The notes under the pieces are model-generated. The model was given only the letters and a program-made list of their open reading frames with translations. It did no database searches and was not told the DNA's origin. The position numbers were made by a program, and so were the translations under genes. A stretch of 64,000 nucleotides of DNA from Acidaminococcus fermentans (GTDB lineage: Bacteria; Bacillota_I; Bacilli_A; RF39; UBA660), in contig CAVKYO010000006.1 of NCBI GenBank assembly GCA_963660495.1, positions 1,810-65,809 on the forward strand, in the 5' to 3' direction. Every line of letters begins with the position of its first letter. Within the stretch, counting starts at the first letter, position 1. Below are positions 44,567-59,471 of the stretch, piece after piece.

Positions 44567-45233
44567 CATCATCAAACCAATCCCAATCCATAATATCCAT
44601 ATCGACATCACTAGAAGTTTCTTCTTTAGCCTTAGCCCTTTTCTTTCGATTATCAGAAACATCTTTAGCAGTCTTTATACCAAGCTTAGACCATTCATAT
44701 AAAATCTTATCTATATATCTCAAATTAGAAACTCCATTATAAGTAGCCTCTTTAATAGCCTCCTGAATAAGCTCCTCACTCATATCATTATCCAACCAAG
44801 CCCTAATAATTTCATATTCCATAGGACTAAGAGTTCTACCAAACTCCTTTTCTATAACTTCATAAATATTAGAATTATCAGCAGAAGAAACACTATTAAC
44901 TTCACCCATAGTAATAAGAGATAACTTACTATAAAAGTCATCCATCAAAACCATTTCTTCCATAAGACCCTTTTCATTTTTCATAACCTCTACTCTAATA
45001 AAATGTTTATCAGAAAGAGTTCCTATATAATTCATAACATCTTTAATATCTAAATTTAAATCACTAGCAAACTTACTAGGATCAAATATAAACTTATTAC
45101 CCAAATTATATAAATACATTAAAAATAGAAACTCACCTACTTCTAACTTTAAATCTTTATAATGTTGTAACATAAAAAGAGGAATAACAACATGTCCCTG
45201 CTTAAAAATATCTATCAATTTAGCACTTTTCAC
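44559..45233 (-). CDS. dnaD: DNA replication protein DnaD
   Basis: Winged-helix N-domain, then the DnaD-like C-domain LSPMEYEIIRAWLD and an acidic tail. It is adjacent to nth as in B. subtilis. Confidence 0.7.
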   Translation of the reverse strand: MKSAKLIDIFKQGHVVIPLFMLQHYKDLKLEVGEFLFLMYLYNLGNKFIFDPSKFASDLNLDIKDVMNYIGTLSDKHFIRVEVMKNEKGLMEEMVLMDDFYSKLSLITMGEVNSVSSADNSNIYEVIEKEFGRTLSPMEYEIIRAWLDNDMSEELIQEAIKEATYNGVSNLRYIDKILYEWSKLGIKTAKDVSDNRKKRAKAKEETSSDVDMDIMDWDWFDDDE

Positions 45234-45268
45234 TTATATCACCTCTTTTAATTATATATAATATCATA

Positions 45269-46363
45269 TTAATTAGTATATTTACCAACAATATATTTTA
45301 ATATATCTTCTTCTTCATTCTTAACTCTTCTATATAATACAGCATGAATCAAATCATCATACACCTCTTTTAAATAGCTCCCTGGCTCCATTTTCAAAGC
45401 TTTTAATATCTCATCACAAGAAATATTTAAATCCTTCTTAGAATGAATAGCTAAGTTAGCATAAGACTCTGTAATATTTTTCTTATCAAGTCCCTTTATC
45501 CCACCAGCAACACTATTAACATAAAGACCATATTTATATAAAGCCATAGGATCTAAATTATTTAGTTTTAATGCTTCATTAACATTACCAATAAGTTCTC
45601 TTTCATTACTAGTAAAAGGATATTTATCAACAACATTTAAAATACTCCATACAGCTATCAAATCATCAGTATTTTTAACTTCCCTTAACTTAGGAAGTTC
45701 TAATTCTACATCAAGTCCAAAATCCAATAAAAGTTTAATACCTTTCATACTATTACTACAAGTAAATATCTTATCTAATTCTTCTTTTTTTCTATAATAG
45801 GACAAATTCTTAAGTAAATATTTATATGAATAAATTGCTTTAACAACATCATCATCCAAATCAAAATCCAATATAGTAGCAAATCTAACAGCTCTTAATA
45901 TTCTAAGACAATCCTCTTCAAACTTATGATTGGCATCTCCTATAGTTCTAATAACTTTTTTTTCTATATCATCTTTACCAGATAATAAATCTATTATTTG
46001 ACCAGACTCATCCATACAAATAGCGTTAATAGTAAAATCTCTTCTCAATAAATCATCTTTTAAATTATCTATATATTTAACCTCTGCTGGTCTTCTATTA
46101 TTAATGTAACTAATATCTTTTCTAAAAGTAGTTATTTCAAAACGAACACCTTTACTTATAACAGTAACAGAACCATAATCTTCTGCTGGTAAACAACTAT
46201 TTTCAAATATTTCTTTTATTTCTTTAGGTGTAGCATTTGTTGCTATATCGATATCATGTGATTCAATACCAAGTAAATAGTCTCTAACAAAACCACCTAC
46301 TATATATGACTCATAACCATGTGAGTTTATTTCTTTAATAAATTTTAAAGCTGCTTCTTGCAT
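45269..46363 (-). CDS. cca: CCA-adding tRNA nucleotidyltransferase
   Basis: The polymerase-beta-type head motif GGFVRDYLLG...DIDIAT is present. Confidence 0.8.
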   Translation of the reverse strand: MQEAALKFIKEINSHGYESYIVGGFVRDYLLGIESHDIDIATNATPKEIKEIFENSCLPAEDYGSVTVISKGVRFEITTFRKDISYINNRRPAEVKYIDNLKDDLLRRDFTINAICMDESGQIIDLLSGKDDIEKKVIRTIGDANHKFEEDCLRILRAVRFATILDFDLDDDVVKAIYSYKYLLKNLSYYRKKEELDKIFTCSNSMKGIKLLLDFGLDVELELPKLREVKNTDDLIAVWSILNVVDKYPFTSNERELIGNVNEALKLNNLDPMALYKYGLYVNSVAGGIKGLDKKNITESYANLAIHSKKDLNISCDEILKALKMEPGSYLKEVYDDLIHAVLYRRVKNEEEDILKYIVGKYTN

Positions 46364-46454
46364 ATTATCACCATCTCATAAATATTATACCAAATAACTT
46401 ATTATCTAACAATAAAACATTCCGACAAAAACAAAAGGTAAGTATCAAAAACTC

Positions 46455-46495
46455 TAAAAAAAAGAACCATATATGATAAATCATATGGCTCTAAA
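46455..46495 (-). terminator. Rho-independent terminator downstream of hup
   Basis: Minus-strand GAGCCATATGAT-ttatc-ATATATGGTTC hairpin followed by TTTTT. Confidence 0.55.
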
Positions 46496-46505
46496 CTACT
46501 TATAA

Positions 46506-46778
46506 TTAGTTTACTGCGTCTTTTAATGCAGTTCCTGCTTTGAAAGTAACAGCTTTTCTAGCAGCAATTTTAACTGTTTCACCAGTTCTAGGATTACGTC
46601 CTTCACGAGCAGCTCTTTCAGATACAGCAAAAGTACCAAATCCAACTAATGGAACTTTATCTCCTTTTACTAATGCTTCAGTAATTGTAGCAAAAGTAGC
46701 ATCAATTGCTCTAGTAGCATCTGCTTTAGTTAATCCTGTAGCAGCAACAACAGCTTCTACTAATTCAACTTTTTTCAT
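46506..46778 (-). CDS. hup: DNA-binding protein HU
   Basis: MKKVELVEAV...GFGTF...RNPRTGE are canonical HU motifs. The local GC is clearly above its surroundings, which is typical of a highly conserved and highly expressed gene. Confidence 0.9.
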   Translation of the reverse strand: MKKVELVEAVVAATGLTKADATRAIDATFATITEALVKGDKVPLVGFGTFAVSERAAREGRNPRTGETVKIAARKAVTFKAGTALKDAVN

Positions 46779-46885
46779 AAAATTTATACCTCCCAATTGT
46801 TAATTAAGCATAACTTATGCTTACATATAAAACTTACCATGTTTTAATATAAAAAGCAAGAAATATCAAAGAAATTTACAAAGTT

Positions 46886-47218
46886 TTACTTCATCTTTTC
46901 ATTAATAGAAGCAAGTAATGAAATGATATGTCCAATAGCAAAGAAGAATAAACAGAATAAAAAACTTATAAACCAGAATAAAATCATCAAGAAAAAGTTA
47001 AATTCTGTCGCAACACAAGTATCACTATATAAAGTTGCTGTTGAGCTACAAGCAGGAAACAAATTGCCAAGTATTATACCAAAGGCAAAACAAAGGATAT
47101 ATGTAACAATAGCGAACTTTTGATAACCATTAAATTGATATTTACCAACTTCTTTTTCAATACTATTTAATCTAGGAAGATCTTTTTTACTATCATTAAT
47201 CTCATCAAACATATTCAT
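46886..47218 (-). CDS. Hypothetical small membrane protein
   Basis: 110 aa with 2 TM segments and no motif. Confidence 0.3.
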   Translation of the reverse strand: MNMFDEINDSKKDLPRLNSIEKEVGKYQFNGYQKFAIVTYILCFAFGIILGNLFPACSSTATLYSDTCVATEFNFFLMILFWFISFLFCLFFFAIGHIISLLASINEKMK

Positions 47219-47220
47219 AA

Positions 47221-48069
47221 CTATTTACTTCCTTTCTTTTCGGACTTCTTATTAGACTTATCGCCCTCTTTTTCTTTATTTTGAAGCTTATCATTAACAC
47301 TCTTTTCCAATGTATTTTCAGTTTTATTAGAAGTAACATCACTTATTGTATCAGTGACTTGTTCACATACATCTTCTATCTTTTCACCAATATCAGAAGC
47401 AATATCATTTACTTTTTCTTTATACTTATCAAAATTACCAGTATTCTTAGTATTTACCTTTTTAAAATCTAAATAAGTACCATATAAGTAGATATATCGT
47501 GCAAATAATATTACATATATACAATCAAATGTTGCTAAAACAGTACCATTAAATGTAGCTGTAGAAATAAGATTAACTGTAAACAATATAACTTCTATTA
47601 TCACTACTGCATAAAAGAACCATTCATTAGTAAGTTCATTAAATGGTGACTTACTTAAATCAAATTCTTTCCAAAGTCTTGTCCCTCTCATAAATATATG
47701 AAAGAAATAAATAAGTATTAACATATGAATAGCTAAAGATAACAATGTAACTAAACCAAAACTTTGAAAAACAGTTAAAATAGCTGTAATAAATGTAATA
47801 AAAAATACAACAATCATAAATATATTAGAATAATCAAAGTATTTTTTACCAAGTTTAGTCTTTAATGAAACAAAATAAACTAAAGCTATCATATAAGTAA
47901 TATTATGATTAAGTATGTCTTGAAACATTCTAATAGGATCTATATTACTATTAATTGAAAAAGACTGACTACTTAAAATAATAACTGAAATAATTAAAAT
48001 AATTAACCAAGTAATAATTGATGGATTATCGTACCATTCTATATTATTCTTTTTTTCTTCTAAATTCAT
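47221..48069 (-). CDS. Hypothetical polytopic membrane protein with a lysine-rich C-terminal tail
   Basis: 282 aa with about 6 TM helices. The C-terminus is KEKEGDKSNKKSEKKGSK. Confidence 0.35.
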   Translation of the reverse strand: MNLEEKKNNIEWYDNPSIITWLIILIISVIILSSQSFSINSNIDPIRMFQDILNHNITYMIALVYFVSLKTKLGKKYFDYSNIFMIVVFFITFITAILTVFQSFGLVTLLSLAIHMLILIYFFHIFMRGTRLWKEFDLSKSPFNELTNEWFFYAVVIIEVILFTVNLISTATFNGTVLATFDCIYVILFARYIYLYGTYLDFKKVNTKNTGNFDKYKEKVNDIASDIGEKIEDVCEQVTDTISDVTSNKTENTLEKSVNDKLQNKEKEGDKSNKKSEKKGSK

Positions 48070-48190
48070 TAAATCACCTTCCTTAAAATAAGTATATCAC
48101 AAAACAAAACTGTTAATATAAATAAAGTGAAATTTCTTTGAAAGTTTACAAATGTATGCTATAATTAATGCTGAATTAAGGAGGGATACT

Positions 48191-49498
48191 ATGTCACTAC
48201 CTACAGTAGCATTAGTTGGGAGACCAAACGTTGGTAAATCAACTCTATTTAATAAGATTGTTGGTAAAAAGATTTCTATAATAGAAGATACCCCAGGAGT
48301 AACAAGAGATCGTATTTATCAAGAAGCAATATATAATCAAAAAAAATTCTATTTAGTAGATACCGGTGGAATAGATACTAGTAAAGAAAAATTTAATGAT
48401 GAAATTAAAATACAGGCTGAAATAGCCATCAAAGAAGCTGACATTGTTATTTTCATGGTAGATGGTAAAGAAGGTCTAACTAATAATGACTTAATCATCA
48501 AAGAGATATTAAGAAAGAGTCAAAAGAAAGTAATTGTTGCTATAAACAAAATGGATGTTAAAGAAGCTGAAAATAACATTTATGACTTTTATGAACTAGG
48601 TTTTGATATTTATATACCAATTAGTAGCATTCATAACATTGGTTATGTAGAATTAATGGATATGGTTACAAACGATTTTAAAGAAAAGGAAGATAAAGAG
48701 GATAATAGATTACGTTTTTCAATCATTGGTAGACCAAACGTTGGCAAAAGTAGTCTTATGAATGCCCTTTTAAATGAAGAAAGAGTTGTTGTATCTGATA
48801 TAGCTGGAACAACAAGAGACTCAATAGATTCTGTTTTAAAGTATCATAATGAAGAATACATCTTAGTAGATACAGCTGGTATGAGAAAAAAAGGTAAAGT
48901 ATTTGAAAGTATTGAAAAATATAGTTTAATAAGATCTTTAAAATCAATTGATAATAGTGACATTTGCCTAGTAGTAATAAATGCTGAAGAAGGTATAACA
49001 GAACACGATAAGCACATTGCTGGATATGCTATAGAAAAAGGTAAAGGCTTAATATTTGTCGTTAATAAATGGGACACAGTAAAAGACACAACAATTCAAG
49101 AATTTGAAAAACTAATGCGTGCCGAATTTCAATTCGCAACGTATGCTCCTATTGTTTACTTATCAGCTTTAACTAAAAAAAGAATTCATACCCTAATGCC
49201 AGAGGTAATAAAAGTTGCCGAAAACATTAAAAAGGAAATTAAAACAAGTCTTATAAATGAAGTCATTTTAGACGCCTACCAATTAAATATACCACCATCA
49301 TATAAAGGAAAACGTTTAAAAATATATTTCACTTCTCAAACTGGAACAAAACCTCCAAAGTTTACTTTTAGAGTAAACAGTAAAGGTTTAGTACACTTCT
49401 CATATGAAAGATACTTAGAAAATAAAATTAGAGAAAACTTCGACTTTACTGGAACACCAATTGTCTTACAATTTAAAAATAGAAACGATGAAAATTAG
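48191..49498 (+). CDS. der: Ribosome-biogenesis GTPase Der (EngA), tandem GTPase domains
   Basis: Two G domains (GRPNVGKST repeated twice) plus a C-terminal KH-like domain. The start at MSLPTV has an AAGGAGG RBS. Confidence 0.9.
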   Translation: MSLPTVALVGRPNVGKSTLFNKIVGKKISIIEDTPGVTRDRIYQEAIYNQKKFYLVDTGGIDTSKEKFNDEIKIQAEIAIKEADIVIFMVDGKEGLTNNDLIIKEILRKSQKKVIVAINKMDVKEAENNIYDFYELGFDIYIPISSIHNIGYVELMDMVTNDFKEKEDKEDNRLRFSIIGRPNVGKSSLMNALLNEERVVVSDIAGTTRDSIDSVLKYHNEEYILVDTAGMRKKGKVFESIEKYSLIRSLKSIDNSDICLVVINAEEGITEHDKHIAGYAIEKGKGLIFVVNKWDTVKDTTIQEFEKLMRAEFQFATYAPIVYLSALTKKRIHTLMPEVIKVAENIKKEIKTSLINEVILDAYQLNIPPSYKGKRLKIYFTSQTGTKPPKFTFRVNSKGLVHFSYERYLENKIRENFDFTGTPIVLQFKNRNDEN

Positions 49499-49507
49499 AG
49501 GTAAATT

Positions 49508-49825
49508 ATGATAATAGGAAATAATTTTAATCAAGATCCCAGAAAAAATTTTGAAAACTCAAACTTTAATAGAAATCAAAAACAACAAGGAGTAACACCA
49601 GAAAATAAATCATTAAAAAATCCTAACATAAATAATAATTTTTCTAACAACATGTTAACTAAAGATATTTCAACATTTAAATATACAAATATTGAAAACA
49701 ATAATGAAGTATATGATAAATCTTTAGCCATTCTACACAACAGATTAAAAAATAACACTATAACATTAGAAGAATTCAATAAACAATGTCAAGCCCTAGC
49801 AAACAAAAGAAATAAAGGACAATAA
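49508..49825 (+). CDS. Hypothetical Asn-rich small protein
   Basis: 105 aa, N-rich, with a GAGGT RBS. No motif. Confidence 0.3.
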   Translation: MIIGNNFNQDPRKNFENSNFNRNQKQQGVTPENKSLKNPNINNNFSNNMLTKDISTFKYTNIENNNEVYDKSLAILHNRLKNNTITLEEFNKQCQALANKRNKGQ

Positions 49826-49869
49826 GAACAAAATATAAACCTCAACATATAATTATGTAGGAGGTTTTT

Positions 49870-50109
49870 ATGTTTGGAGATAGTTTTTTCAAAAGAGTTG
49901 AAAAAAAGACAAATATAAATAAAGAAACTATATTATCTTTAGCCGACAAATTACAAAGAAGTAATATGAAAGATGAAAATACCTTAAGAGAAGTCATAAA
50001 AGATATAAGTAATATGACTGGAAAAGAAGTTTCAAAAGAAAAAGAACAAAGAATAATTAACGCTATAAAAAAAGACAATATCCCAAAAGATATTGACAAT
50101 ATGTTTTAA
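49870..50109 (+). CDS. Stage VI sporulation protein F (SpoVIF/YjcC)-like small protein
   Basis: 79 aa. FFKRVEKKTNI...LADKLQ...KDENTLREVIKDISNMTGKEVSKEKEQRI recalls the SpoVIF family pattern. A strong AGGAGG RBS is present. Confidence 0.4.
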   Translation: MFGDSFFKRVEKKTNINKETILSLADKLQRSNMKDENTLREVIKDISNMTGKEVSKEKEQRIINAIKKDNIPKDIDNMF

Positions 50110-50128
50110 AGAGAACGCTTCTCTTTTT

Positions 50129-51139
50129 TTATTTTACTTCGATTTTGTCTCTATTAAAAACTATAGCAGTTGCAAAAATTAAAACTAGAAACAAAGACCC
50201 AAGTACATAAGCTATTGATGCACCAGTTTCAGGATTATCACCAGGAGTACTTTTAGCAGTAACAGCAGTAACACTATAAGCTTCACTTAATTTATTACTA
50301 CCAACAACACTAGCTTTATAAAAATATTTTTTACCCTTAACAACATCTTCATCATATAAATAATTAGAACCATCACAAGCAACAGTACCTATAAGAGTAT
50401 ATTCTCCATTTTCACTTTCAGATCTATAAATACTACATTTTTTAATTTCATCTGAATCATAAATTTCAAAAACATTAGCAGCTATCGTAATATAATCAGC
50501 TGAAATTGTACCAAACGAAATATCAGGTATAAATTCTTCATTAAAATCATCATAACCGTAATTAGGATTTTCAGCATTACCAAAATCTTTAATAGCATTT
50601 TGAATTTTTTCTTTATCGAAAGACATTTTTAAATAAGTTAAATAAGTACCAGAGCAACTTGAATCATCCTCTTTAAGTTCAAAATCTTTTTTTTCAACAA
50701 AGATACCATATTTATCATAATCATTAAATTTCTCATCAGAAATCCAAGTAATTATATTATAAAACTGCTCATCAGTACATCCAGCAGCATTATAAGCACC
50801 AGCCATAATTAAAGTTAAAGAAAAAGTATTATAAAATATATCATTAAAATCAGCACAAGTATTAGGAATATCTTCGCTTTCATATTCTAAATAATCATCC
50901 TCATAAGGATAAGAAAAAATAGTATCATCACTATAAGTAACTATAAATTGCTTATTAACAGAATCATTACTTAAAGGAAGAAAAGTAGCATCTGAAACAT
51001 TAAAAACATTTTTAAAATACTCATTACCATTTGTCACAACATCATCAGGATCAACTAATTCTCCAGCCGCTAAAACATTAGTAATCATAAATTGACAGAC
51101 CAATATTCCAGTCATTAAAAAATAAATAACCTTTTTCAT
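50129..51139 (-). CDS. Secreted cell-wall-anchored surface protein with an NPETG sorting signal
   Basis: N-terminal signal peptide (ITNVLAAGE). The C-terminus is NPETG + 22 hydrophobic residues + NRDKIEVK. Confidence 0.55.
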   Translation of the reverse strand: MKKVIYFLMTGILVCQFMITNVLAAGELVDPDDVVTNGNEYFKNVFNVSDATFLPLSNDSVNKQFIVTYSDDTIFSYPYEDDYLEYESEDIPNTCADFNDIFYNTFSLTLIMAGAYNAAGCTDEQFYNIITWISDEKFNDYDKYGIFVEKKDFELKEDDSSCSGTYLTYLKMSFDKEKIQNAIKDFGNAENPNYGYDDFNEEFIPDISFGTISADYITIAANVFEIYDSDEIKKCSIYRSESENGEYTLIGTVACDGSNYLYDEDVVKGKKYFYKASVVGSNKLSEAYSVTAVTAKSTPGDNPETGASIAYVLGSLFLVLIFATAIVFNRDKIEVK

Positions 51140-51259
51140 ATAAACACCTCTTTACTATACCAAATATATCATAACATCTATTAAAAGTAAAATTATAAAT
51201 ATTAAAAGTTCTTTTTTTACAAAAAACATCATAATCTTTACTGTATAAGGAGAATGTAT

Positions 51260-51640
51260 ATGGATAAACAAGAAATAATAAAAAATATTGCGAAAAGAAC
51301 AAATGGTGATATCTACTTAGGCGTTGTTGGAGCAGTAAGAACTGGTAAATCAACTTTTATAAAACGTATGGTAGAAACATTAATTGTTCCTAATATTGAA
51401 AATGAATATGAAAGAAAAAGAGCCTTAGATGAAATTCCCCAAAGTGCTGCCGGTAAAACGATTATGACTACAGAGCCAAAATTTGTTCCTAATAATGCTG
51501 CCAATATTAAAATAGATGACTTTACATGTAATATTAGATTAATAGACTGTGTAGGATACATGATTGATAAAGCTCAAGGAGCAACAGATGAAAATGGACC
51601 TAGAATGGTTAAAACTCCCTGGGTAAAGCTCTCTAAGTGA
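51260..51640 (+). CDS. spoIVA: Stage IV sporulation protein A, N-terminal portion (gene interrupted; as read the ORF ends at a stop inside the insertion)
   Basis: MDKQEIIKNIAKRTNGDIYLGVVGAVRTGKSTFIK...GPRMVKTPW is essentially collinear with the SpoIVA N-terminus up to TPW. The frame then diverges (VKLSK-stop). AAGGAG lies 7 nt upstream of the ATG at 51260. Confidence 0.85.
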   Translation: MDKQEIIKNIAKRTNGDIYLGVVGAVRTGKSTFIKRMVETLIVPNIENEYERKRALDEIPQSAAGKTIMTTEPKFVPNNAANIKIDDFTCNIRLIDCVGYMIDKAQGATDENGPRMVKTPWVKLSK

Positions 51641-51740
51641 TACCAAAATAAAAATAAATAAATGCCGATAAAATAAGGGCAAAAGACAATATTTCACTTT
51701 ATTAGTTAAAAACTAATTTATAGAAAGTGAGATATTTTTT

Positions 51741-51965
51741 ATGAAAAATGAGCAAATTGTGGGAATTGATGACTTAATACATTTGCCCTTAAAATATGTC
51801 AAGATAAATAAAGTAGTATTCCCTATTGAGAAAGTTAAGTATTTATCTAATGACGAAGTTACAGAAATATTAAAAGATTGCATTGATAATCAAATAATAT
51901 ATAATCCTAATTATGAAATGGTTAAGAATATTACTTTATTAGATGATACAGGTCCAAAAATATAG
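51741..51965 (+). CDS. Hypothetical protein (element cargo)
   Basis: 74 aa ORF inside the intervening element. No motif. Confidence 0.3.
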   Translation: MKNEQIVGIDDLIHLPLKYVKINKVVFPIEKVKYLSNDEVTEILKDCIDNQIIYNPNYEMVKNITLLDDTGPKI

Positions 51966-52016
51966 TATAATTTAATTAACAGTTTAACAAAAAAATTAAA
52001 ACAAGGAGGCAAAAAA

Positions 52017-53012
52017 ATGGAAGAACATGGAAATATAATTATTTATAAAGATAAGAATGGTAATGATAATATTGAAGTAAAAATGCAAGATAATACTGTT
52101 TGGCTAAATCAAGAACAATTAGTTAAATTATATAATTCAAGCAAATCTAATATATCTGAACACATTAAACACATATTTGAAGACGGAGAATTAGAAGAAT
52201 CGTCAACTGTTCGGAATTTCCGAACAGTTGCCTCTAATGGCAAAATTTATAACATGATGTATTATAATCTTGATATGATTGTTGCTGTTGGATTTAGAGT
52301 TAGATCTAATATAGGAACTAATTTTAGAAGATGGGCAAATGAAAGATTGACTGAATATATGACAAAAGGATTTACAATGAATGATGATTTACTTAAACGA
52401 GCTGGTGGTGGATTATATTTTGATGAACTACTTTCTAGAATTCGTGATATTAGATCATCTGAAAAAGTTTTTTGGAGAAAAATACTTGATATTTATGCTA
52501 CTTCTATTGATTATGATCCTAAAGCAGAAATTACACAAGAATTTTTTAAAACAGTTCAAAATAAAATGCACTGGGCTGCACATGGACACACAGCTGCAGA
52601 AGTTATTGTAGAAAGAGCCGATGGAAATAAGGATTTTATGGGATTAACTTCATTTAATGGAGATAGACCTACTTTACTAGATGCTCAAATTGCTAAAAAC
52701 TATTTAAATGATAAAGAATTAGATATTTTAAATAGGATTGTTTCTATGTATTTAGATTATGCAGAATTACAAGCTATTGAGCAAAGAACCATGACAATGA
52801 GTGATTGGGTTAAAGAATTAAATTACTTTTTAACTATGAATAGAAAAGACATTTTAAAAGATTCTGGCAAAATCAATCATAAAGAAGCAATGAATCACGC
52901 AAAAAAAGAATATGATAAGTATAAAGACAGAATTGCTTTAAAACCTAGTGAAGTTGAACTTCATTATTTAGAAAGTATTAAAGATTTAGAAAAATTAGAA
53001 AATAAAGATTAA
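52017..53012 (+). CDS. RhuM-family (Virulence_RhuM) protein
   Basis: WLNQEQLVKLYNSSKSNISEHIKHIFEDGELEE and YNLDMIVAVGFRVRS match the conserved RhuM-family N-terminal block. A GGAGG RBS is present. Confidence 0.65.
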   Translation: MEEHGNIIIYKDKNGNDNIEVKMQDNTVWLNQEQLVKLYNSSKSNISEHIKHIFEDGELEESSTVRNFRTVASNGKIYNMMYYNLDMIVAVGFRVRSNIGTNFRRWANERLTEYMTKGFTMNDDLLKRAGGGLYFDELLSRIRDIRSSEKVFWRKILDIYATSIDYDPKAEITQEFFKTVQNKMHWAAHGHTAAEVIVERADGNKDFMGLTSFNGDRPTLLDAQIAKNYLNDKELDILNRIVSMYLDYAELQAIEQRTMTMSDWVKELNYFLTMNRKDILKDSGKINHKEAMNHAKKEYDKYKDRIALKPSEVELHYLESIKDLEKLENKD

Positions 53013-53091
53013 TATTTCAGTATGTAAGCATTTCTTACATACTGATTTTTTAAAGGCATGTTTAACCAAATATCTTTTTTGTTGTGTAAAA

Positions 53092-53346
53092 ATGGAAATT
53101 GATTTAAATGAAATAATAATATCTGAAACTATTAATAGTATCACAGATAACAACAACGATTATATTAAGTTTGGTTTAATCACTCTCAATTATGATAAAA
53201 GAAAAGTATATACTAGTTTTAATATTAACCGAAATCTTTATGAAATATATAAAGATTTTTTTGTTAAAGGAACAAAAGTATTTATTAAAGGTTATCTTAA
53301 CTATTATATTACCAATAATAAAATCCAATCTTTTATAAACGTATGA
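53092..53346 (+). CDS. Hypothetical protein (element cargo)
   Basis: 84 aa ORF with no motif. Confidence 0.25.
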   Translation: MEIDLNEIIISETINSITDNNNDYIKFGLITLNYDKRKVYTSFNINRNLYEIYKDFFVKGTKVFIKGYLNYYITNNKIQSFINV

Positions 53347-53411
53347 TAATTTATGAAGAACAGTAATTTTTATAGACTATTACACATAGAATTCACTGTG
53401 GAGGAATAATC

Positions 53412-53594
53412 ATGTATGACACATTAGAATTTTATGATAATACGGGTTGTGATTTAAAAGACGTTTTAAAAAGTTGTATATATAAATATTATATAGCTAA
53501 TAAAAATTCATTAAAAGCATTCAAAACAGACGAAAAAAATAACATAATTGATTCAACCAATAAAGTGAAAATGTTGCCAAGTGAAAGGAGTTAA
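53412..53594 (+). CDS. Hypothetical protein (element cargo)
   Basis: 60 aa ORF with a GGAGG RBS. It ends 2 nt before the recombinase start. Confidence 0.3.
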   Translation: MYDTLEFYDNTGCDLKDVLKSCIYKYYIANKNSLKAFKTDEKNNIIDSTNKVKMLPSERS

Positions 53595-53596
53595 AA

Positions 53597-55183
53597 GTGT
53601 ATAATAGATATACGATAGACAATACAATTTTTAAAATAGCCATTTATATAAGACTATCTCGTGAAGATGGTGACGATATGGAATCAGAAAGTGTCACTAA
53701 TCAAAGAAGTTTATTAACTAGTTATTTAAAAGCGCAAGAATTAGTTGCAGTTGATATTTATGTTGATGATGGTTATACAGGAACAAATTTTGAGCGTCCA
53801 GAGTTTAAAAGAATGTTAAATGACATTGAAAACGGAAAAATTAATATGGTTATAACAAAAGACTTATCAAGATTAGGTCGTGACCATGTTATGACAGGTT
53901 TCTATGTTGAAACCTTTTTTCCCAAAAATGATGTCAGATATATTGCTATAAATGACGATATAGATACTTTTTTTGAAACCATTGGCTCAGATATGATGCC
54001 ATTTAAATTAAGTATGAATGATATGTATGCAAAAGACATTTCCAAAAAAGTTCGTTCAAACTTACTACAAATGAAAAAAGACGGAAAGTTTTGTGGAAGT
54101 GCACCATCTTATGGTTATATGAGAGATCCAAATGATAAACACAAATTAATACCAGATCCAAATACTGCTCCTATTGTAAAAAGAATATTTGATTTATATG
54201 TCGCTGGTTATGGTAGTTCACAAATTGCCGAAATATTAACAAGAGAAGAATTACCAACACCTATTATGTATAAATACTCTGGTGCTAAATTAAATAACTT
54301 TGACCATCCTGAAATATGGAAACACACATCTGTTAGTAATATCATTAAAAATAGAGTTTATATTGGCGATTTAATCCAACACAGAGTTCAAAAAGTAAAC
54401 TATAAAATTAAGAAAATGAAAAATGTTCCAGAAAGTGAATGGTGTATTAAGGAAAATGCACACGAGCCAGTTGTTGATAGAAGAACATTTGAAATAGCAC
54501 AATCTATTAAAGATTCGCGGGATACTTATAATTCTGAACGAAGAAATATTAATTATGTATTATCTGATTTAGTTTATTGTAAAGATTGTGGTGCTAGAAT
54601 GAGTATTAGCTATGATAAAAAAAGAGATAGAGTTACAATGAATTGTAATAACTATCGTAAGTTTAGTAAGTATGATATATGTTTTTCTCATTATATTAAC
54701 TATACTAAATTAGAAAAAACTGTCTATAACAAATTAAGCACTATGGCTAGATGGTATATTAATGATAAAGATGAATTTGAAAGTATCATCAAAAATCAAT
54801 ATGTTGATCCTAAACAAGATAAACTTAAAAAGATTGATGAACTTAATTTAAAGATAGCTGAATTAAAAAGAAAACAAGACTCTTTATATGATGATAAATT
54901 TAATAATATTATAAATGTAGAAACTTATCAAAGATTATTTAAAACTACTGAAGAAGATATTAAAACTGCAAACGAAAAATTAGAAAAATTAAAAGAAGAA
55001 ATTTCCAGTATAAACGAAAATTCCTCTTGTTATGTTGAATATTTAGATATAATTAAAAACTTTTTAGATATGAAAAATCCAACAAGAGAAATTATGAATA
55101 GATTAATTGATAAGATATATGTAACGAAAGATAAAAAACTAGAAATTCATTATAGAATTAAAAAAAGTGAAGTATTAGTATAA
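53597..55183 (+). CDS. Large serine recombinase (SpoIVCA/CisA-like), GTG start
   Basis: Resolvase catalytic domain IAIYIRLSREDGDD with the Ser nucleophile in RLS. A recombinase domain follows, then a zinc ribbon (CKDCGARMS...CNNYRK) and a C-terminal coiled coil. 528 aa. AAAGGAG lies 7 nt upstream of the GTG. Confidence 0.85.
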   Translation: MYNRYTIDNTIFKIAIYIRLSREDGDDMESESVTNQRSLLTSYLKAQELVAVDIYVDDGYTGTNFERPEFKRMLNDIENGKINMVITKDLSRLGRDHVMTGFYVETFFPKNDVRYIAINDDIDTFFETIGSDMMPFKLSMNDMYAKDISKKVRSNLLQMKKDGKFCGSAPSYGYMRDPNDKHKLIPDPNTAPIVKRIFDLYVAGYGSSQIAEILTREELPTPIMYKYSGAKLNNFDHPEIWKHTSVSNIIKNRVYIGDLIQHRVQKVNYKIKKMKNVPESEWCIKENAHEPVVDRRTFEIAQSIKDSRDTYNSERRNINYVLSDLVYCKDCGARMSISYDKKRDRVTMNCNNYRKFSKYDICFSHYINYTKLEKTVYNKLSTMARWYINDKDEFESIIKNQYVDPKQDKLKKIDELNLKIAELKRKQDSLYDDKFNNIINVETYQRLFKTTEEDIKTANEKLEKLKEEISSINENSSCYVEYLDIIKNFLDMKNPTREIMNRLIDKIYVTKDKKLEIHYRIKKSEVLV

Positions 55184-55253
55184 GAAAAATACAGGTTGCT
55201 TTTGAGCAATTTTTAAAAAGACTTATGGGTATCACTAAACATACTCAGACTGG

Positions 55254-56366
55254 TACACAGAGGAAATACCATTTGTAGAAGCTGCCGAAATAGGCACTGA
55301 AAAAGTTATAAAAGACCATTCTACCATTGGTATCGTTGTAACAACAGATGGCTCTATCGGTGAATTTGAAAGGAATGACTACATAGAATCTGAATCAAGA
55401 GTAATAGAAGAATTAAAAAATATAGGTAAACCATTCATAATAGTTCTAAATACAACTCATCCAACGCTTCCAGAAACAGAAAAATTAGCTGACAAGTTAA
55501 AAGAAGAATACAATGTTCCAGTACTACCAATTAGTGTAGAAGCAATGAACGAAAAAGACATGTACAATATTTTAAAAGAAGCATTATATGAATTCCCAGT
55601 CTTAGAAGTAAAAGTAAATATGCCTGAATGGATAGCAATTCTAAATCCAGAACATGAAGTTAAAAAAAGTTATATTGACTCAATAAAAGAAAGTGTTATA
55701 GAAATAGATAAATTAAGAGATATAGATAACATAATAAGTCATTTTTTAACTAATCCTATGATTGAGAAAAGTTATTTAGCTGACGTTGATCCTTCAACTG
55801 GAATAATTACCGTAAATCTAACTGCCAGTGCCGAACTTTATAATAAAACATTAACCGACATTATTAAAATAGATGTCAAAAATAAAGCAGACTTATTATC
55901 ACTATTCCAAGACTATAACATTGCTAAAAAAGAATATGACCAGATAAAATATGCTTTAAAAATGGTCAAGCAAACTGGTTATGGTGTCGCAACTCCATCT
56001 ATTGAAGATATGAAATTAGATAAACCAGAAATAATAAAACAAGGTCCAAGATATGGTGTTAAATTAAAAGCCGTTGCACCATCAATTCATATGATAAGAG
56101 TCGATGTTGAGTCAACCTTTGAGCCAATAATAGGTAGTGAAGTACAATGTAAAGAACTAATAGATTATCTAATGAAAGATCATGATAATAATCCAAATGA
56201 AATATGGAAAAGCGAAATTTTTGGTAGAAGTCTAGATTCAATAGTACAAGAAGGAATCCAATCAAAAATAAGTCTAATGCCAGATAACATACGTTTTAAA
56301 CTTCAAACTACTTTAACAAAAGTTGTAAATAAAGGCTCAAATAACATGATTGCAATAGTAATTTAA
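55254..56366 (+). CDS. spoIVA: Stage IV sporulation protein A, C-terminal portion (in frame with the 51260..51622 segment after precise excision)
   Basis: EIPFVEAAEIGTEKVIKDHSTIGIVVTTDGSIGE...ALYEFPVLEVKVNMPEW...MVKQTGYGVA...KAVAPSIHMI...GRSL is collinear with B. subtilis SpoIVA residues ~122-492. There is no start codon or RBS at this position. Confidence 0.85.
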   Translation, partial: YTEEIPFVEAAEIGTEKVIKDHSTIGIVVTTDGSIGEFERNDYIESESRVIEELKNIGKPFIIVLNTTHPTLPETEKLADKLKEEYNVPVLPISVEAMNEKDMYNILKEALYEFPVLEVKVNMPEWIAILNPEHEVKKSYIDSIKESVIEIDKLRDIDNIISHFLTNPMIEKSYLADVDPSTGIITVNLTASAELYNKTLTDIIKIDVKNKADLLSLFQDYNIAKKEYDQIKYALKMVKQTGYGVATPSIEDMKLDKPEIIKQGPRYGVKLKAVAPSIHMIRVDVESTFEPIIGSEVQCKELIDYLMKDHDNNPNEIWKSEIFGRSLDSIVQEGIQSKISLMPDNIRFKLQTTLTKVVNKGSNNMIAIVI

Positions 56367-56409
56367 AGAATCAAAAGATTCTATAAATGAAAAAGACTAG
56401 TAAGTTTAC

Positions 56410-59255: not shown

Positions 59256-59471
59256 TTATTTATTTGTATTATAGCTTCCAGAAACTTGATTTAAACCGTT
59301 TTGTACTAAACGTCTAGTAATTTCACCACCAACTGAACCATTTGCACGGCTAGTAGCATCAGCACCTAAGTTTACACCAAATTCATTAGCTATTTCATAT
59401 TTCATTTTATCAATAGCTTGTTTAGCACCTGGAACTCTCATTTTCATAGAAGAATTCTTTGTATTATTCAT
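59256..59471 (-). CDS. sspA: Alpha/beta-type small acid-soluble spore protein
   Basis: [38 protein letters not shown] matches the SASP alpha/beta signatures almost exactly. A GGAGG RBS is present. Confidence 0.85.

What the first reader, a model, noticed from the sequence alone, without database searches (positions are those of the whole stretch)
51260..56366. spoIVA is split by a ~3.6-kb skin-like intervening element carrying a large serine recombinase
In the sequence, SpoIVA homology runs from the ATG at 51260 to ...GPRMVKTPW (codon TGG ending at 51622). It resumes at 55254 with YTEEIPFVEAAEIGT... and continues to the C-terminus at 56366. Joining ...ACT CCC TGG to TAC ACA GAG... restores one continuous 492-codon SpoIVA, which is also the length of B. 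subtilis SpoIVA. The intervening 3.63 kb encodes a 528-aa large serine recombinase directly adjacent to the right junction, plus RhuM-like and small hypothetical cargo ORFs. This is the arrangement seen in the B. subtilis skin element in sigK and in other developmentally excised intervening elements of sporulation genes, where a mother-cell-expressed serine recombinase reconstitutes the gene. SpoIVA is expressed in the mother cell, so irreversible excision there would be tolerated. I cannot verify from here whether a spoIVA-interrupting element has been reported.
Basis: partly seen in the sequence, partly recalled or inferred. Interest (0 to 1): 0.9.

Follow-up and report, generated by a model that had tools for sequence, protein, structure and literature searches.

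The report
Mobile element splitting sporulation gene spoIVA
The spore-coat gene spoIVA is cut in two by a 3.6-kb mobile element that carries its own cut-and-paste enzyme and what looks like a sporulation-timed switch, and related elements sit at the same codon in about 30 uncultured gut bacterial species, so this adds a new gene to the short list of sporulation genes thought to be repaired by DNA excision during spore formation.

Summary
spoIVA codons 1-121 (51260-51622) and 122-491 (55254-56366) are separated by 3,631 bp. Joined, they give a gap-free 491-aa SpoIVA (TIGR02836, 701 bits). A syntenic relative (L109) has the empty site, and the two junctions share only TGG.

The insert carries an intact 528-aa large serine recombinase of the TnpX/TndX type. 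A conserved 60-aa gene lies directly upstream of it. There is also a truncated ORF, a RhuM/PDC-S05 cargo gene and a 74-aa ORF.

This is not a one-off. Every recombinase at least 52% identical whose contig reaches downstream, from about 30 species-level MAGs, is followed by spoIVA resuming at the same codon. All have conserved attP arms (GGTATCAC...TGG...GTGATACC). Longer relatives carry a MobV relaxase, so the family consists of mobilizable elements and the window copy is a minimal derivative. Near-identical recombinases sit in hosts whose spoIVA has diverged to synonymous saturation, which indicates recent horizontal spread.

A conserved promoter-like motif with a mother-cell-type -10 box (CATAnnAT) precedes the 60-aa gene and the recombinase. 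It resembles the host spoIVA promoter. This supports mother-cell excision but does not prove it.

I found no published report of a split spoIVA. I file it as a new member of the known class of sporulation-gene intervening elements.

The parts
51208..51237 (+). Promoter-like site of the host spoIVA gene. GTTCTTTTT, 13 nt, then the -10 box CATAATCT. The ribosome-binding site AAGGAG is at 51248-51253.
   Evidence: The same GTTCTTTTT-N13-CATA geometry lies upstream of intact or split spoIVA in L001 and L022.
51260..51622 (+). spoIVA 5' part, codons 1-121, ending at Trp121. The open frame runs 5 codons further into the element (VKLSK) to the stop at 51638-51640.
   Evidence: SpoIVA_ATPase profile 1-122, E 2.5e-58; the flank aligns to the empty-site locus L109 up to 51622.
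51620..51644 (.). attL. Shared core TGG (51620-51622), 14 nt, then the element-side arm GTGATACC (51637-51644).
   Evidence: The same TGG|g-N13/14-GTGATACC is seen in all 5 loci where the left junction is available.
51741..51965 (+). 74-aa ORF of unknown function (cargo).
   Evidence: No match in Pfam, PHROGs or PADLOC.
52017..53012 (+). RhuM-family cargo gene. It belongs to the candidate phage-defence family PDC-S05.
   Evidence: PF13310, E 8e-107. (PADLOC PDC-S05, E 2e-150). A 95% identical copy lies next to a related recombinase in L011.
53017..53045 (+). Intrinsic-terminator-like hairpin after the RhuM gene (12-bp stem followed by a T run).
53092..53346 (+). 84-aa ORF. It is a 3'-truncated copy of a 139-158-aa gene that sits at this position in longer family members.
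   Evidence: No known family.
53363..53392 (+). Promoter-like site of the recombination module. GTAATTTTT, 13 nt, then the -10 box CATAGAAT. GGAGG is at 53400-53404.
   Evidence: The site is conserved across most element subfamilies whose intergenic DNA is otherwise unalignable (no such box was evident in L034 or L035). In the window the pattern matches only here and at the spoIVA promoter (expected 0.09), but the pattern was derived from these sites.
53412..53594 (+). 60-aa gene. It is a candidate recombination directionality factor or recombinase partner. Its stop lies 2 nt before the recombinase start codon.
   Evidence: The core MYExxEFYxxxGxDLKxVLKSCIYxYY is conserved wherever the recombinase clade occurs. 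It is an orphan family of 38 clusters. It is predicted as one long helix.
53597..55183 (+). Large serine recombinase, 528 aa, with a GTG start. It is of the TnpX/TndX type.
   Evidence: Resolvase, Recombinase and Zn_ribbon_recom above cutoff; DUF4368 borderline. (TndX, 34.6% identity over 96%). (TnpX catalytic domain 2MHC, E 6e-27; SprA 9DXH, E 8e-18).
55196..55214 (+). Weak hairpin (TTGCT-TTTG-AGCAA) followed by a T run, between the recombinase stop and attR. It may be a terminator.
   Evidence: Read. The TTGCT...AGCAA stem recurs in the closer relatives. It was not called by the scan because it has fewer than 3 G-C pairs.
55228..55253 (.). attR. Element-side arm GGTATCAC (55228-55235), 15 nt, then the shared core TGG (55251-55253).
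   Evidence: GGTATC[AGT][CT]-N15-TGG, followed by T, is present in 27 of the 28 right junctions examined; in L032 the arm is displaced by about one base.
55254..56366 (+). spoIVA 3' part, codons 122-491 plus the stop codon.
   Evidence: SpoIVA_ATPase 124-237, SpoIVA_middle, SpoIVA_C; aligns to L109 from 55251.

Best explanation
The 3,631-bp block (about 51623-55253) is an integrated site-specific element that has split the mother-cell gene spoIVA at codon Trp121/Tyr122. It is a cut-down member of a family of mobilizable integrative elements. The elements in this family insert into this one site using a TnpX/TndX-type large serine recombinase. The recombinase recognises an attP made of two inverted arms (GGTATCAC ... 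GTGATACC) around a central TGG, and an attB formed by the conserved ...KTPW|Y.EEIPF... coding DNA.

Proposed mechanism: during sporulation, the mother-cell RNA polymerase that transcribes spoIVA (sigma-E type) also fires the element's promoter at 53363-53392. This makes the 60-aa protein and the recombinase from one operon. The recombinase, probably helped by the 60-aa protein acting as a directionality factor, recombines attL with attR and releases a 3.6-kb circle. That leaves an intact 491-codon spoIVA behind its own promoter. The forespore chromosome keeps the element, so it is inherited.

Shown here: the split, the empty site, the intact recombination module, the conserved att arms, the family-wide site specificity, the horizontal spread, and the conserved promoter-like motif. 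Inferred: which sigma factor uses that promoter, the role of the 60-aa protein, and the timing and cell specificity of excision.
For: Precise in-frame split and syntenic empty site.

The recombinase has all the domains of a large serine recombinase.

Identical insertion codon in 27 loci from different species-level MAGs. This covers every recombinase at least 52% identical whose contig extends downstream.

The att arms and the TGG core are conserved, while the spacer between them varies.

Complete 10.5-kb relatives carry a MobV relaxase.

Recombinase Ks is at most 0.02 between hosts whose spoIVA Ks is 0.3-1.2. The element therefore moves between species and still always lands at this site.

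A promoter-like motif with a mother-cell-type -10 box is conserved upstream of the 60-aa gene in most subfamilies. It has the same geometry as host spoIVA promoters. PMC3789822 describes CATAnnnT as the canonical -10 box of mother-cell sigma factors. PMC3789822 and PMC517825 show that spoIVA is sigma-E dependent.

The order promoter, small gene, recombinase, attR matches the 'rdf-int-attR' recombination unit of phi3T in kamA (PMC6957869).

The split allele is common. The exact window fragments occur on 10 contigs, and sister C-terminal fragments occur on 50 and 35 contigs, alongside intact alleles in the same 90%-identity cluster.

Other sporulation genes nearby are intact: SpoVIF and an alpha/beta-type SASP.
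Against: There is no direct evidence of excision. The attP circle junction was not found in viral or metagenome contigs. The exact rejoined protein of this strain is not in the 15-billion-protein collection.

The insertions look recent. The intactness of the two spoIVA halves therefore cannot be read as selection for function after insertion.

The promoter assignment rests on a short consensus in 27% GC DNA. Its -35 part (GTWMTTTTT) is not the textbook sigma-E -35. At least one distant family member (L034) seems to have a TATAAT-like box instead.

TnpX and TndX are known, from my own recollection of the literature, to excise without a partner protein and outside sporulation.

If the 60-aa gene and the recombinase share a single sporulation promoter, it is unclear how the recombinase would be made for integration after transfer.
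Confidence: 0.62

Rival explanations
1. A selfish mobilizable element with no developmental control. It targets spoIVA simply because the site is conserved. The carrier is asporogenous unless the element excises stochastically in vegetative cells. Sporulation then becomes a phase-variable trait, or is just impaired.
For: The family is mobilizable (MobV relaxase) and spreads between species. The recombinase is closest to TnpX/TndX of transposon-like elements. The insertions look recent, so intact halves prove nothing. The yabG element of C. botulinum was found excised at all growth stages (PMC10747680).
Against: The promoter upstream of the recombination module has a mother-cell-type -10 box and copies the geometry of the spoIVA promoter. 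It is conserved across most subfamilies that share no other intergenic similarity. The split allele is frequent across many samples and about 30 species. That is hard to reconcile with a sporulation knock-out in anaerobes that keep other sporulation genes. The window copy has lost its mobilization genes but kept the promoter, the 60-aa gene, the recombinase and both att sites intact.
Confidence: 0.27
2. A decayed, immobile remnant. spoIVA is a pseudogene and the lineage has lost sporulation.
For: The window copy lacks a relaxase, and one of its ORFs (53092-53346) is truncated relative to its homologues. No rejoined allele of this strain is on record.
Against: The recombinase is full length with all domains, and the 60-aa gene is intact. 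Both att arms match the family consensus exactly. Neither spoIVA half has a frameshift or a stop, and the joined protein is 98.4% identical to intact relatives. The neighbouring SpoVIF and SASP genes are intact.
Confidence: 0.08
3. An assembly or binning chimera that falsely joins an element to spoIVA.
For: The sequences come from metagenome assemblies. One related contig (L011) is binned to Bacteroidaceae, which is probably a binning error.
Against: The same two junctions, to the nucleotide, recur in dozens of independent assemblies from different projects and hosts. The exact window alleles occur on 10 contigs.
Confidence: 0.01

Closest known systems
skin element in sigK (B. subtilis SpoIVCA; C. 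difficile CD1231 with its directionality factor CD1234)
   Same: Both are insertions inside a mother-cell sporulation gene. Both carry their own large serine recombinase next to one att site. Precise excision would restore the reading frame. In both, a small gene lies near the recombinase and a sporulation-type promoter is present (PMC4191935, PMC5025042).
   Different: The target is spoIVA, a structural morphogenetic ATPase of the early sigma-E regulon, not a sigma factor. There are no phage genes. The family carries a MobV relaxase. The recombinase belongs to the TnpX/TndX branch. Excision has not been demonstrated.
gin element in gerE (B. cereus ATCC 10987; PMC5595907)
   Same: Both are small, non-prophage elements that interrupt a sporulation gene and rely on serine-type recombinase(s).
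   Different: gin has three recombinase genes and has been shown to rearrange during sporulation. Here there is one recombinase plus a 60-aa partner gene, a different target, and no experiment.
phi3T/kamA and SPbeta/spsM recombination units (attL-rdf-int-attR; PMC6957869, PMC5499854)
   Same: The order small gene, integrase, attR is the same, with a sporulation-type promoter in front of the small gene. kamA, like spoIVA, belongs to the sigma-E regulon. SprA is a detectable homologue (PDB 9DXH, E 8e-18, residues 11-476).
   Different: Those are 130-kb active phages with separate promoters for int and rdf. Here the two genes look like a single operon in a 3.6-kb element. The 60-aa protein has no detectable similarity to any known family.
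Tn4451/Tn4453 (TnpX plus the Mob/Pre-type TnpZ) and Tn5397 (TndX)
   Same: These hold the closest characterised recombinases: the TnpX catalytic domain at E 6e-27 and TndX at 34.6% identity over 96%. Both also show the borderline DUF4368 tail. Longer family members pair the recombinase with a MobV/Mob_Pre relaxase, as Tn4451 does (the Tn4451 gene content is from my own knowledge).
   Different: Identity is only about 35%. Those elements insert at many loosely defined sites and carry resistance genes. This clade uses one fixed codon of spoIVA in every case seen.
yin element in yabG (C. botulinum V73; PMC10747680)
   Same: Both are recently found large-serine-recombinase elements in a conserved sporulation gene, with a putative small directionality factor and a predicted sporulation promoter.
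   Different: yin is a prophage unique to one strain. This family is non-phage and is present in about 30 species.

Membership tests
SpoIVA (stage IV sporulation protein A, TIGR02836) | A full-length collinear match to the equivalog model above its cutoff | tested here: met
   The joined 491-aa product matches model positions 1-492 at 701 bits (cutoff 460). Pfam finds the ATPase, middle and C domains in order.
SpoIVA (stage IV sporulation protein A, TIGR02836) | A single uninterrupted gene | tested here: not met
   The gene is split after codon 121 by 3,631 bp.
Large serine recombinase | An N-terminal resolvase catalytic domain, a recombinase domain and a zinc-ribbon domain in one polypeptide of about 450-700 aa | tested here: met
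   PF00239 78.8 bits, PF07508 84.1 bits and PF13408 41.3 bits, all above their cutoffs. The protein is 528 aa. The motif YIRLSRED, with the presumed nucleophile Ser, can be read. The catalytic domain matches TnpX 2MHC.
Large serine recombinase | Catalyses attP x attB and attL x attR recombination with a 2-bp crossover | not testable with these tools
   Only indirect support. The junctions share TGG, and the centre of symmetry of the attP arms falls on the TG.
Sporulation-gene intervening element (skin, vfbin, vrin, gin, SPbeta, phi3T, yin) | [quoted passage not shown] | tested here: met
   The gene is spoIVA. spoIVA is sigma-E dependent in B. subtilis and C. difficile (PMC517825, PMC3789822). 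This has not been tested in this organism.
Sporulation-gene intervening element (skin, vfbin, vrin, gin, SPbeta, phi3T, yin) | Carries its own site-specific recombinase and is bounded by att sites, so that deletion restores the gene exactly | tested here: met
   (empty site L109, 3-nt overlap).
Sporulation-gene intervening element (skin, vfbin, vrin, gin, SPbeta, phi3T, yin) | Excision is induced during sporulation, in the mother cell | not testable with these tools
   The only evidence is a conserved promoter-like site with a mother-cell-type -10 box. No circle junction was found.
Sporulation-gene intervening element (skin, vfbin, vrin, gin, SPbeta, phi3T, yin) | Prophage or prophage-like gene content (true of most members, but not of gin) | tested here: not met
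   PHROGs finds no phage structural or lysis genes in the ORFs scanned from the window copy, L002 and L101. No close relative of the recombinase occurs in viral contigs.
Integrative mobilizable element | An integrase plus a relaxase, and no conjugation machinery | tested here: not met
   The window copy has no relaxase. Complete relatives L101 and L102 have a Mob_Pre-family relaxase; only L101's was scored against NF041497 MobV (106.6 bits, cutoff 100). The window copy is therefore a derivative of such elements rather than a functional one.
Tn4451/Tn5397-type elements (TnpX/TndX) | A recombinase orthologous to TnpX or TndX, with insertion at multiple GA-centred target sites | tested here: not met
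   Identity to TndX is only 34.6%. A single fixed target with a TGG core is used in 28 of 28 junctions. The target preference of TnpX and TndX is recalled from the literature, not tested here.

The most novel reading that the evidence does not exclude
spoIVA, the universal basement-layer coat ATPase, is a recurrent landing site for at least two unrelated families of excisable elements in a large clade of uncultured gut Bacilli. The family described here spreads horizontally by mobilization. It appears to have acquired a copy of its target gene's own sigma-E-type promoter, so that it removes itself just in time. In effect it would be a transmissible 'developmental DNA intron' in an early, essential sporulation gene. 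It could also set the fraction or timing of cells that complete sporulation.
Probability: 0.3. Interest if true: 0.8.

Novelty: new member of a known kind. Interest (0 to 1): 0.62.

Why it matters
The split sporulation genes reported so far are sigK, spsM, spoVFB, spoVR, gerE, kamA and yabG. They are mostly late or accessory genes, and most cases come from cultured Bacillus or Clostridium.

spoIVA is the one coat morphogenetic protein conserved in all endospore formers (bioRxiv 10.1101/2022.02.25.481979). It acts early in the mother cell. An element here would have to excise promptly and reliably.

The family is abundant in uncultured gut and rumen Bacilli. This has three consequences:

- Genome-based calls of 'sporulation lost' in these MAGs can be wrong when spoIVA is merely split.
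- The family offers a natural set of orthogonal large serine recombinases with a defined 3-bp core and known attB/attP pairs.
- It gives a testable case of a mobile element apparently borrowing its target's promoter logic.

Tried and rejected
1. Search for the excised circle (attP pattern GGTATCAY-N15-TGGG-N13/14-GTGATACC). There were 0 hits in viral contigs. There were 3 hits in metagenome contigs, all in 44-56% GC DNA, which I take to be chance.

2. Search for a phage form. The recombinase has no relative above 43% identity in IMG/VR or in GenBank phages, and PHROGs finds no phage genes. I therefore dropped the prophage origin.

3. Ka/Ks test for purifying selection on spoIVA after insertion. 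It was uninformative, because no pair of loci shows co-divergence of element and host. The recombinases are far younger than the hosts.

4. Function of the 60-aa protein. It has no match in Pfam, PHROGs or PADLOC. It forms an orphan family of 38 clusters. AlphaFold gives one long helix at mean pLDDT 70, which is too simple for a fold search.

5. Group II intron, ribozyme or tRNA target. There are no Rfam hits at E up to 0.1 and no tRNAs.

6. Literature. Six full-text searches and nine papers gave no report of an interrupted spoIVA. The supplementary files held as text for Mageeney 2020 contain no match to SpoIVA, PF09547 or 'sporulation'. The subscription-only paper Abe et al. 2013 (Mol Microbiol) could not be read.

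7. Exact rejoined protein of this strain. It is not in the collection.


Full report
**1.

The + strand frame from ATG 51260 reads a SpoIVA N-terminus up to ...GPRMVKTPW (TGG at 51620-51622). It then runs 5 codons into foreign DNA and stops. SpoIVA sequence resumes at 55254 (YTEEIPFVEAAEIGT...) and runs to the stop at 56364-56366.

Pfam places the first piece on SpoIVA_ATPase profile positions 1-122. It places the second on positions 124-237, followed by SpoIVA_middle and SpoIVA_C. The joined protein is 491 aa. It matches the NCBIfam equivalog TIGR02836 end to end at 701 bits against a cutoff of 460. It aligns without gaps to intact 491-aa SpoIVA proteins at 87-91% identity and, within its own 90% cluster, at 98.4%. 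The window holds no second spoIVA copy.

**2. Empty site**

L109 is a 92.8-kb metagenome scaffold with the same gene order: CCA-adding enzyme, HU, Der, SpoVIF, spoIVA, EngB, a DHH protein, AckA, SASP, ThiI, EzrA. Its spoIVA is intact.

- Window 45213-51622 aligns to L109 1-6363 at 90.9% identity.
- Window 55251-56382 aligns to L109 6361-7494 at 93.4% identity.
- The two alignments overlap by the three bases TGG.

The 3,631-bp block is therefore an insertion, and TGG is the only sequence shared by the two junctions.

**3. What the insert contains**

All genes are on the + strand.

- A 74-aa ORF with no known family.
- A 331-aa RhuM-family gene (Pfam E 8e-107). It also matches the PADLOC candidate defence family PDC-S05 at E 2e-150 and is followed by a strong terminator hairpin.
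- An 84-aa ORF. It is a 3'-truncated copy of a 139-158-aa gene found in longer relatives.
- A 60-aa ORF.
- Two bases after its stop, a 528-aa large serine recombinase with Resolvase, Recombinase and Zn_ribbon_recom domains, plus a borderline DUF4368 tail.

The closest characterised relatives of the recombinase are the TnpX catalytic domain (PDB 2MHC, E 6e-27), TndX of Tn5397 (34.6% identity over 96% of the length) and, more distantly, SprA of SPbeta. No Rfam family or tRNA is present. GC content is 25.7%, against 27.5% for the window.

**4. It is a family with one fixed target**

A scan of one genome per species returned 80 loci. In every locus where the recombinase is at least 52% identical and the contig continues downstream, spoIVA resumes about 60-75 nt after the recombinase stop. 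It resumes exactly at the residue equivalent to Tyr122. This is 27 loci, labelled Bacilli, Tenericutes, Mollicutes, Erysipelotrichaceae or Tissierellia MAGs from human, rabbit, goat, deer and other guts. Recombinases at 37-44% identity are not next to spoIVA.

The junctions show a clear attP architecture. The element side of attR is GGTATCAC-N15-TGG. The element side of attL is TGG-G-N13/14-GTGATACC. The arms and the TGG are conserved across the clade, apart from a roughly one-base displacement of the arm in L032, while the spacer varies. The centre of symmetry falls on the TG of the Trp codon. This is what a large serine recombinase site looks like. It argues that the system is functional and site-specific.

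**5. The family is mobilizable and on the move**

L101 holds a complete 10.5-kb copy between the two spoIVA halves. It has a Mob_Pre/MobV relaxase (NF041497, 106.6 bits against a cutoff of 100), Xre-type regulators, an HTH_36/DnaD-like protein, the 158-aa gene, the small gene and the recombinase. L102 is similar, with Fic, CAAX-protease and VanZ cargo. L002 carries an IS110, a CAAX protease and a nitrilase-family gene. The ORFs scanned from the window copy, L002 and L101 gave no match to phage structural or lysis genes, and no close relative of the recombinase is present in viral collections. The window copy is thus a minimal derivative that has lost its relaxase.

Pairwise Ka/Ks shows near-identical recombinases (Ks 0.003-0.02) in hosts whose spoIVA differs at Ks 0.3-1.2. 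Examples are L028/L033, L008/L024, L008/L020 and L002/L005. This indicates recent transfer between species. A side effect is that the intact state of the spoIVA halves cannot be read as post-insertion selection.

Within the window's own 90% SpoIVA cluster, intact and split alleles coexist:

- The exact window fragments occur on 10 contigs.
- Sister 273-aa C-terminal ORFs occur on 50 and 35 contigs.
- Intact alleles occur on 67, 10, 6 and fewer contigs.

**6. Evidence on timing**

The intergenic DNA upstream of the 60-aa gene is unalignable between subfamilies, except for one motif. This motif is GT(A/T)(A/C)TTTTT, 13 nt (12 in one subfamily), then CATA(N)(A/C)AT, followed by a GGAGG ribosome-binding site. 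The distant member L034 may lack it.

CATAnnnT is the canonical -10 box of the mother-cell sigma factors E and K. A T-rich or TTA-type -35 at this spacing was accepted as sigma-E-like for C. difficile sigK P1 (PMC3789822). Host spoIVA promoters in the window, L001 and L022 have the same GTTCTTTTT-N13-CATA geometry.

In the 64-kb window the pattern matches only these two places, against 0.09 expected. In more than 1 Mb of fetched loci it matches only upstream of the small gene or of spoIVA. The pattern was derived from these sites, so the count shows rarity rather than independent significance.

spoIVA is sigma-E dependent in both B. subtilis and C. difficile (PMC517825, PMC3789822). The order promoter, small gene, integrase, attR is that of the phi3T recombination unit in kamA, where the small gene is the sporulation-induced directionality factor (PMC6957869).

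The 60-aa protein has a conserved 27-residue core. It occurs only with this recombinase clade and is predicted as a single long helix. A role as a directionality factor is plausible but untested. TnpX and TndX are recalled to work without a partner protein.

**7. What is missing**

No excised circle junction was found in viral or metagenome contigs. The exact rejoined protein of this strain is absent from the protein collection. Both results are expected if excision is confined to terminal mother cells. They are equally expected if excision never happens.

**8. Verdict**

The structural claim is certain. The most likely mechanism is recombinase-mediated excision timed by a sigma-E-type promoter, which restores spoIVA in the mother cell (confidence about 0.6). 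The main rival is a selfish mobilizable element without developmental control (about 0.27).

Reported split sporulation genes are sigK, spsM, spoVFB, spoVR, gerE, kamA and yabG (PMC4191935, PMC5595907, PMC6957869, PMC10747680). I found no report for spoIVA, although one subscription paper could not be read.

I classify it as a new member of a known kind. It has several unusual features: an early, universally conserved structural target; a non-phage, mobilizable backbone; a TnpX/TndX-type recombinase; wide spread in uncultured gut Bacilli; and a promoter that mirrors that of its target.

Noticed in passing
L007 about 8240; L009 about 9500; L111 about 5210; L112 about 2845 (equivalent to window about 56096, codon about 402-403...APSIH|M...): There is a second break point in spoIVA. 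Homology stops after TCAATTCAyAT(A) in four loci from different MAGs. In L111 and L112 the first site is intact. In L007 and L009 both sites are occupied. The inserted DNA of L111 and L007 shares genes at 60-79% aa identity and includes HTH_36-like and Xre-like ORFs. This looks like a second, unrelated family of elements at another fixed position in spoIVA. Its far end and its recombinase are not on the contigs held.
   Followed up: partly
L046, L048, L056, L064 (Eubacterium sp. CAG:180), L069, L074, L077, L078, L081: immediately downstream of the recombinase: A paralogous recombinase clade, about 41% identical, is followed within a few dozen bases by an open frame starting (C)YIKxVSGD(S/T)LW/YSIA. 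That is a gene of 2-4 LysM repeats entered in the middle of its first LysM motif. The junction is the same in many species. This may be another split gene, perhaps a spore coat or cortex gene. The N-terminal half was not located.
   Followed up: partly
window 52017-53012: The RhuM-family cargo gene matches the PADLOC candidate phage-defence family PDC-S05 at E 2e-150. A 95% identical copy accompanies a related recombinase in L011. The minimal element may therefore persist partly as a carrier of a defence gene.
   Followed up: partly
window 51208-51237 and 53363-53392: The element's promoter-like site and the host spoIVA promoter-like site share an unusual -35-region motif (GTWMTTTTT) at identical spacing from a CATA box. 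In L022 the two copies are GTTCTTTTT-N13-CATA in both places. This suggests either promoter capture or convergence.
   Followed up: yes
window 56383, compared with L109 7495-7954: A stretch of about 460 bp carrying a 141-aa ORF lies between spoIVA and engB in the empty-site relatives L109 and L110. It is absent from the window.
   Followed up: no
window 59256-59471 (- strand) and 49870-50109 (+ strand): Other sporulation genes near the split spoIVA are intact. One is an alpha/beta-type small acid-soluble spore protein with the motif ...[16 protein letters not shown].... The other is SpoVIF (Pfam E 1e-22). Both are consistent with a spore-forming host.
   Followed up: partly
L011 (CAVCAD010000108.1): A 3.2-kb contig carries the RhuM gene, the small gene and the recombinase of this family. 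It is deposited in a bin named Bacteroidaceae bacterium, which is almost certainly a binning error.
   Followed up: no
window 50129-51139 (- strand): A 336-aa ORF lies directly upstream of spoIVA and diverges from it. It has an N-terminal signal-like segment and a C-terminal hydrophobic tail, and it matches no Pfam or PADLOC family. Its position is conserved in L109 as a 331-aa gene.
   Followed up: no
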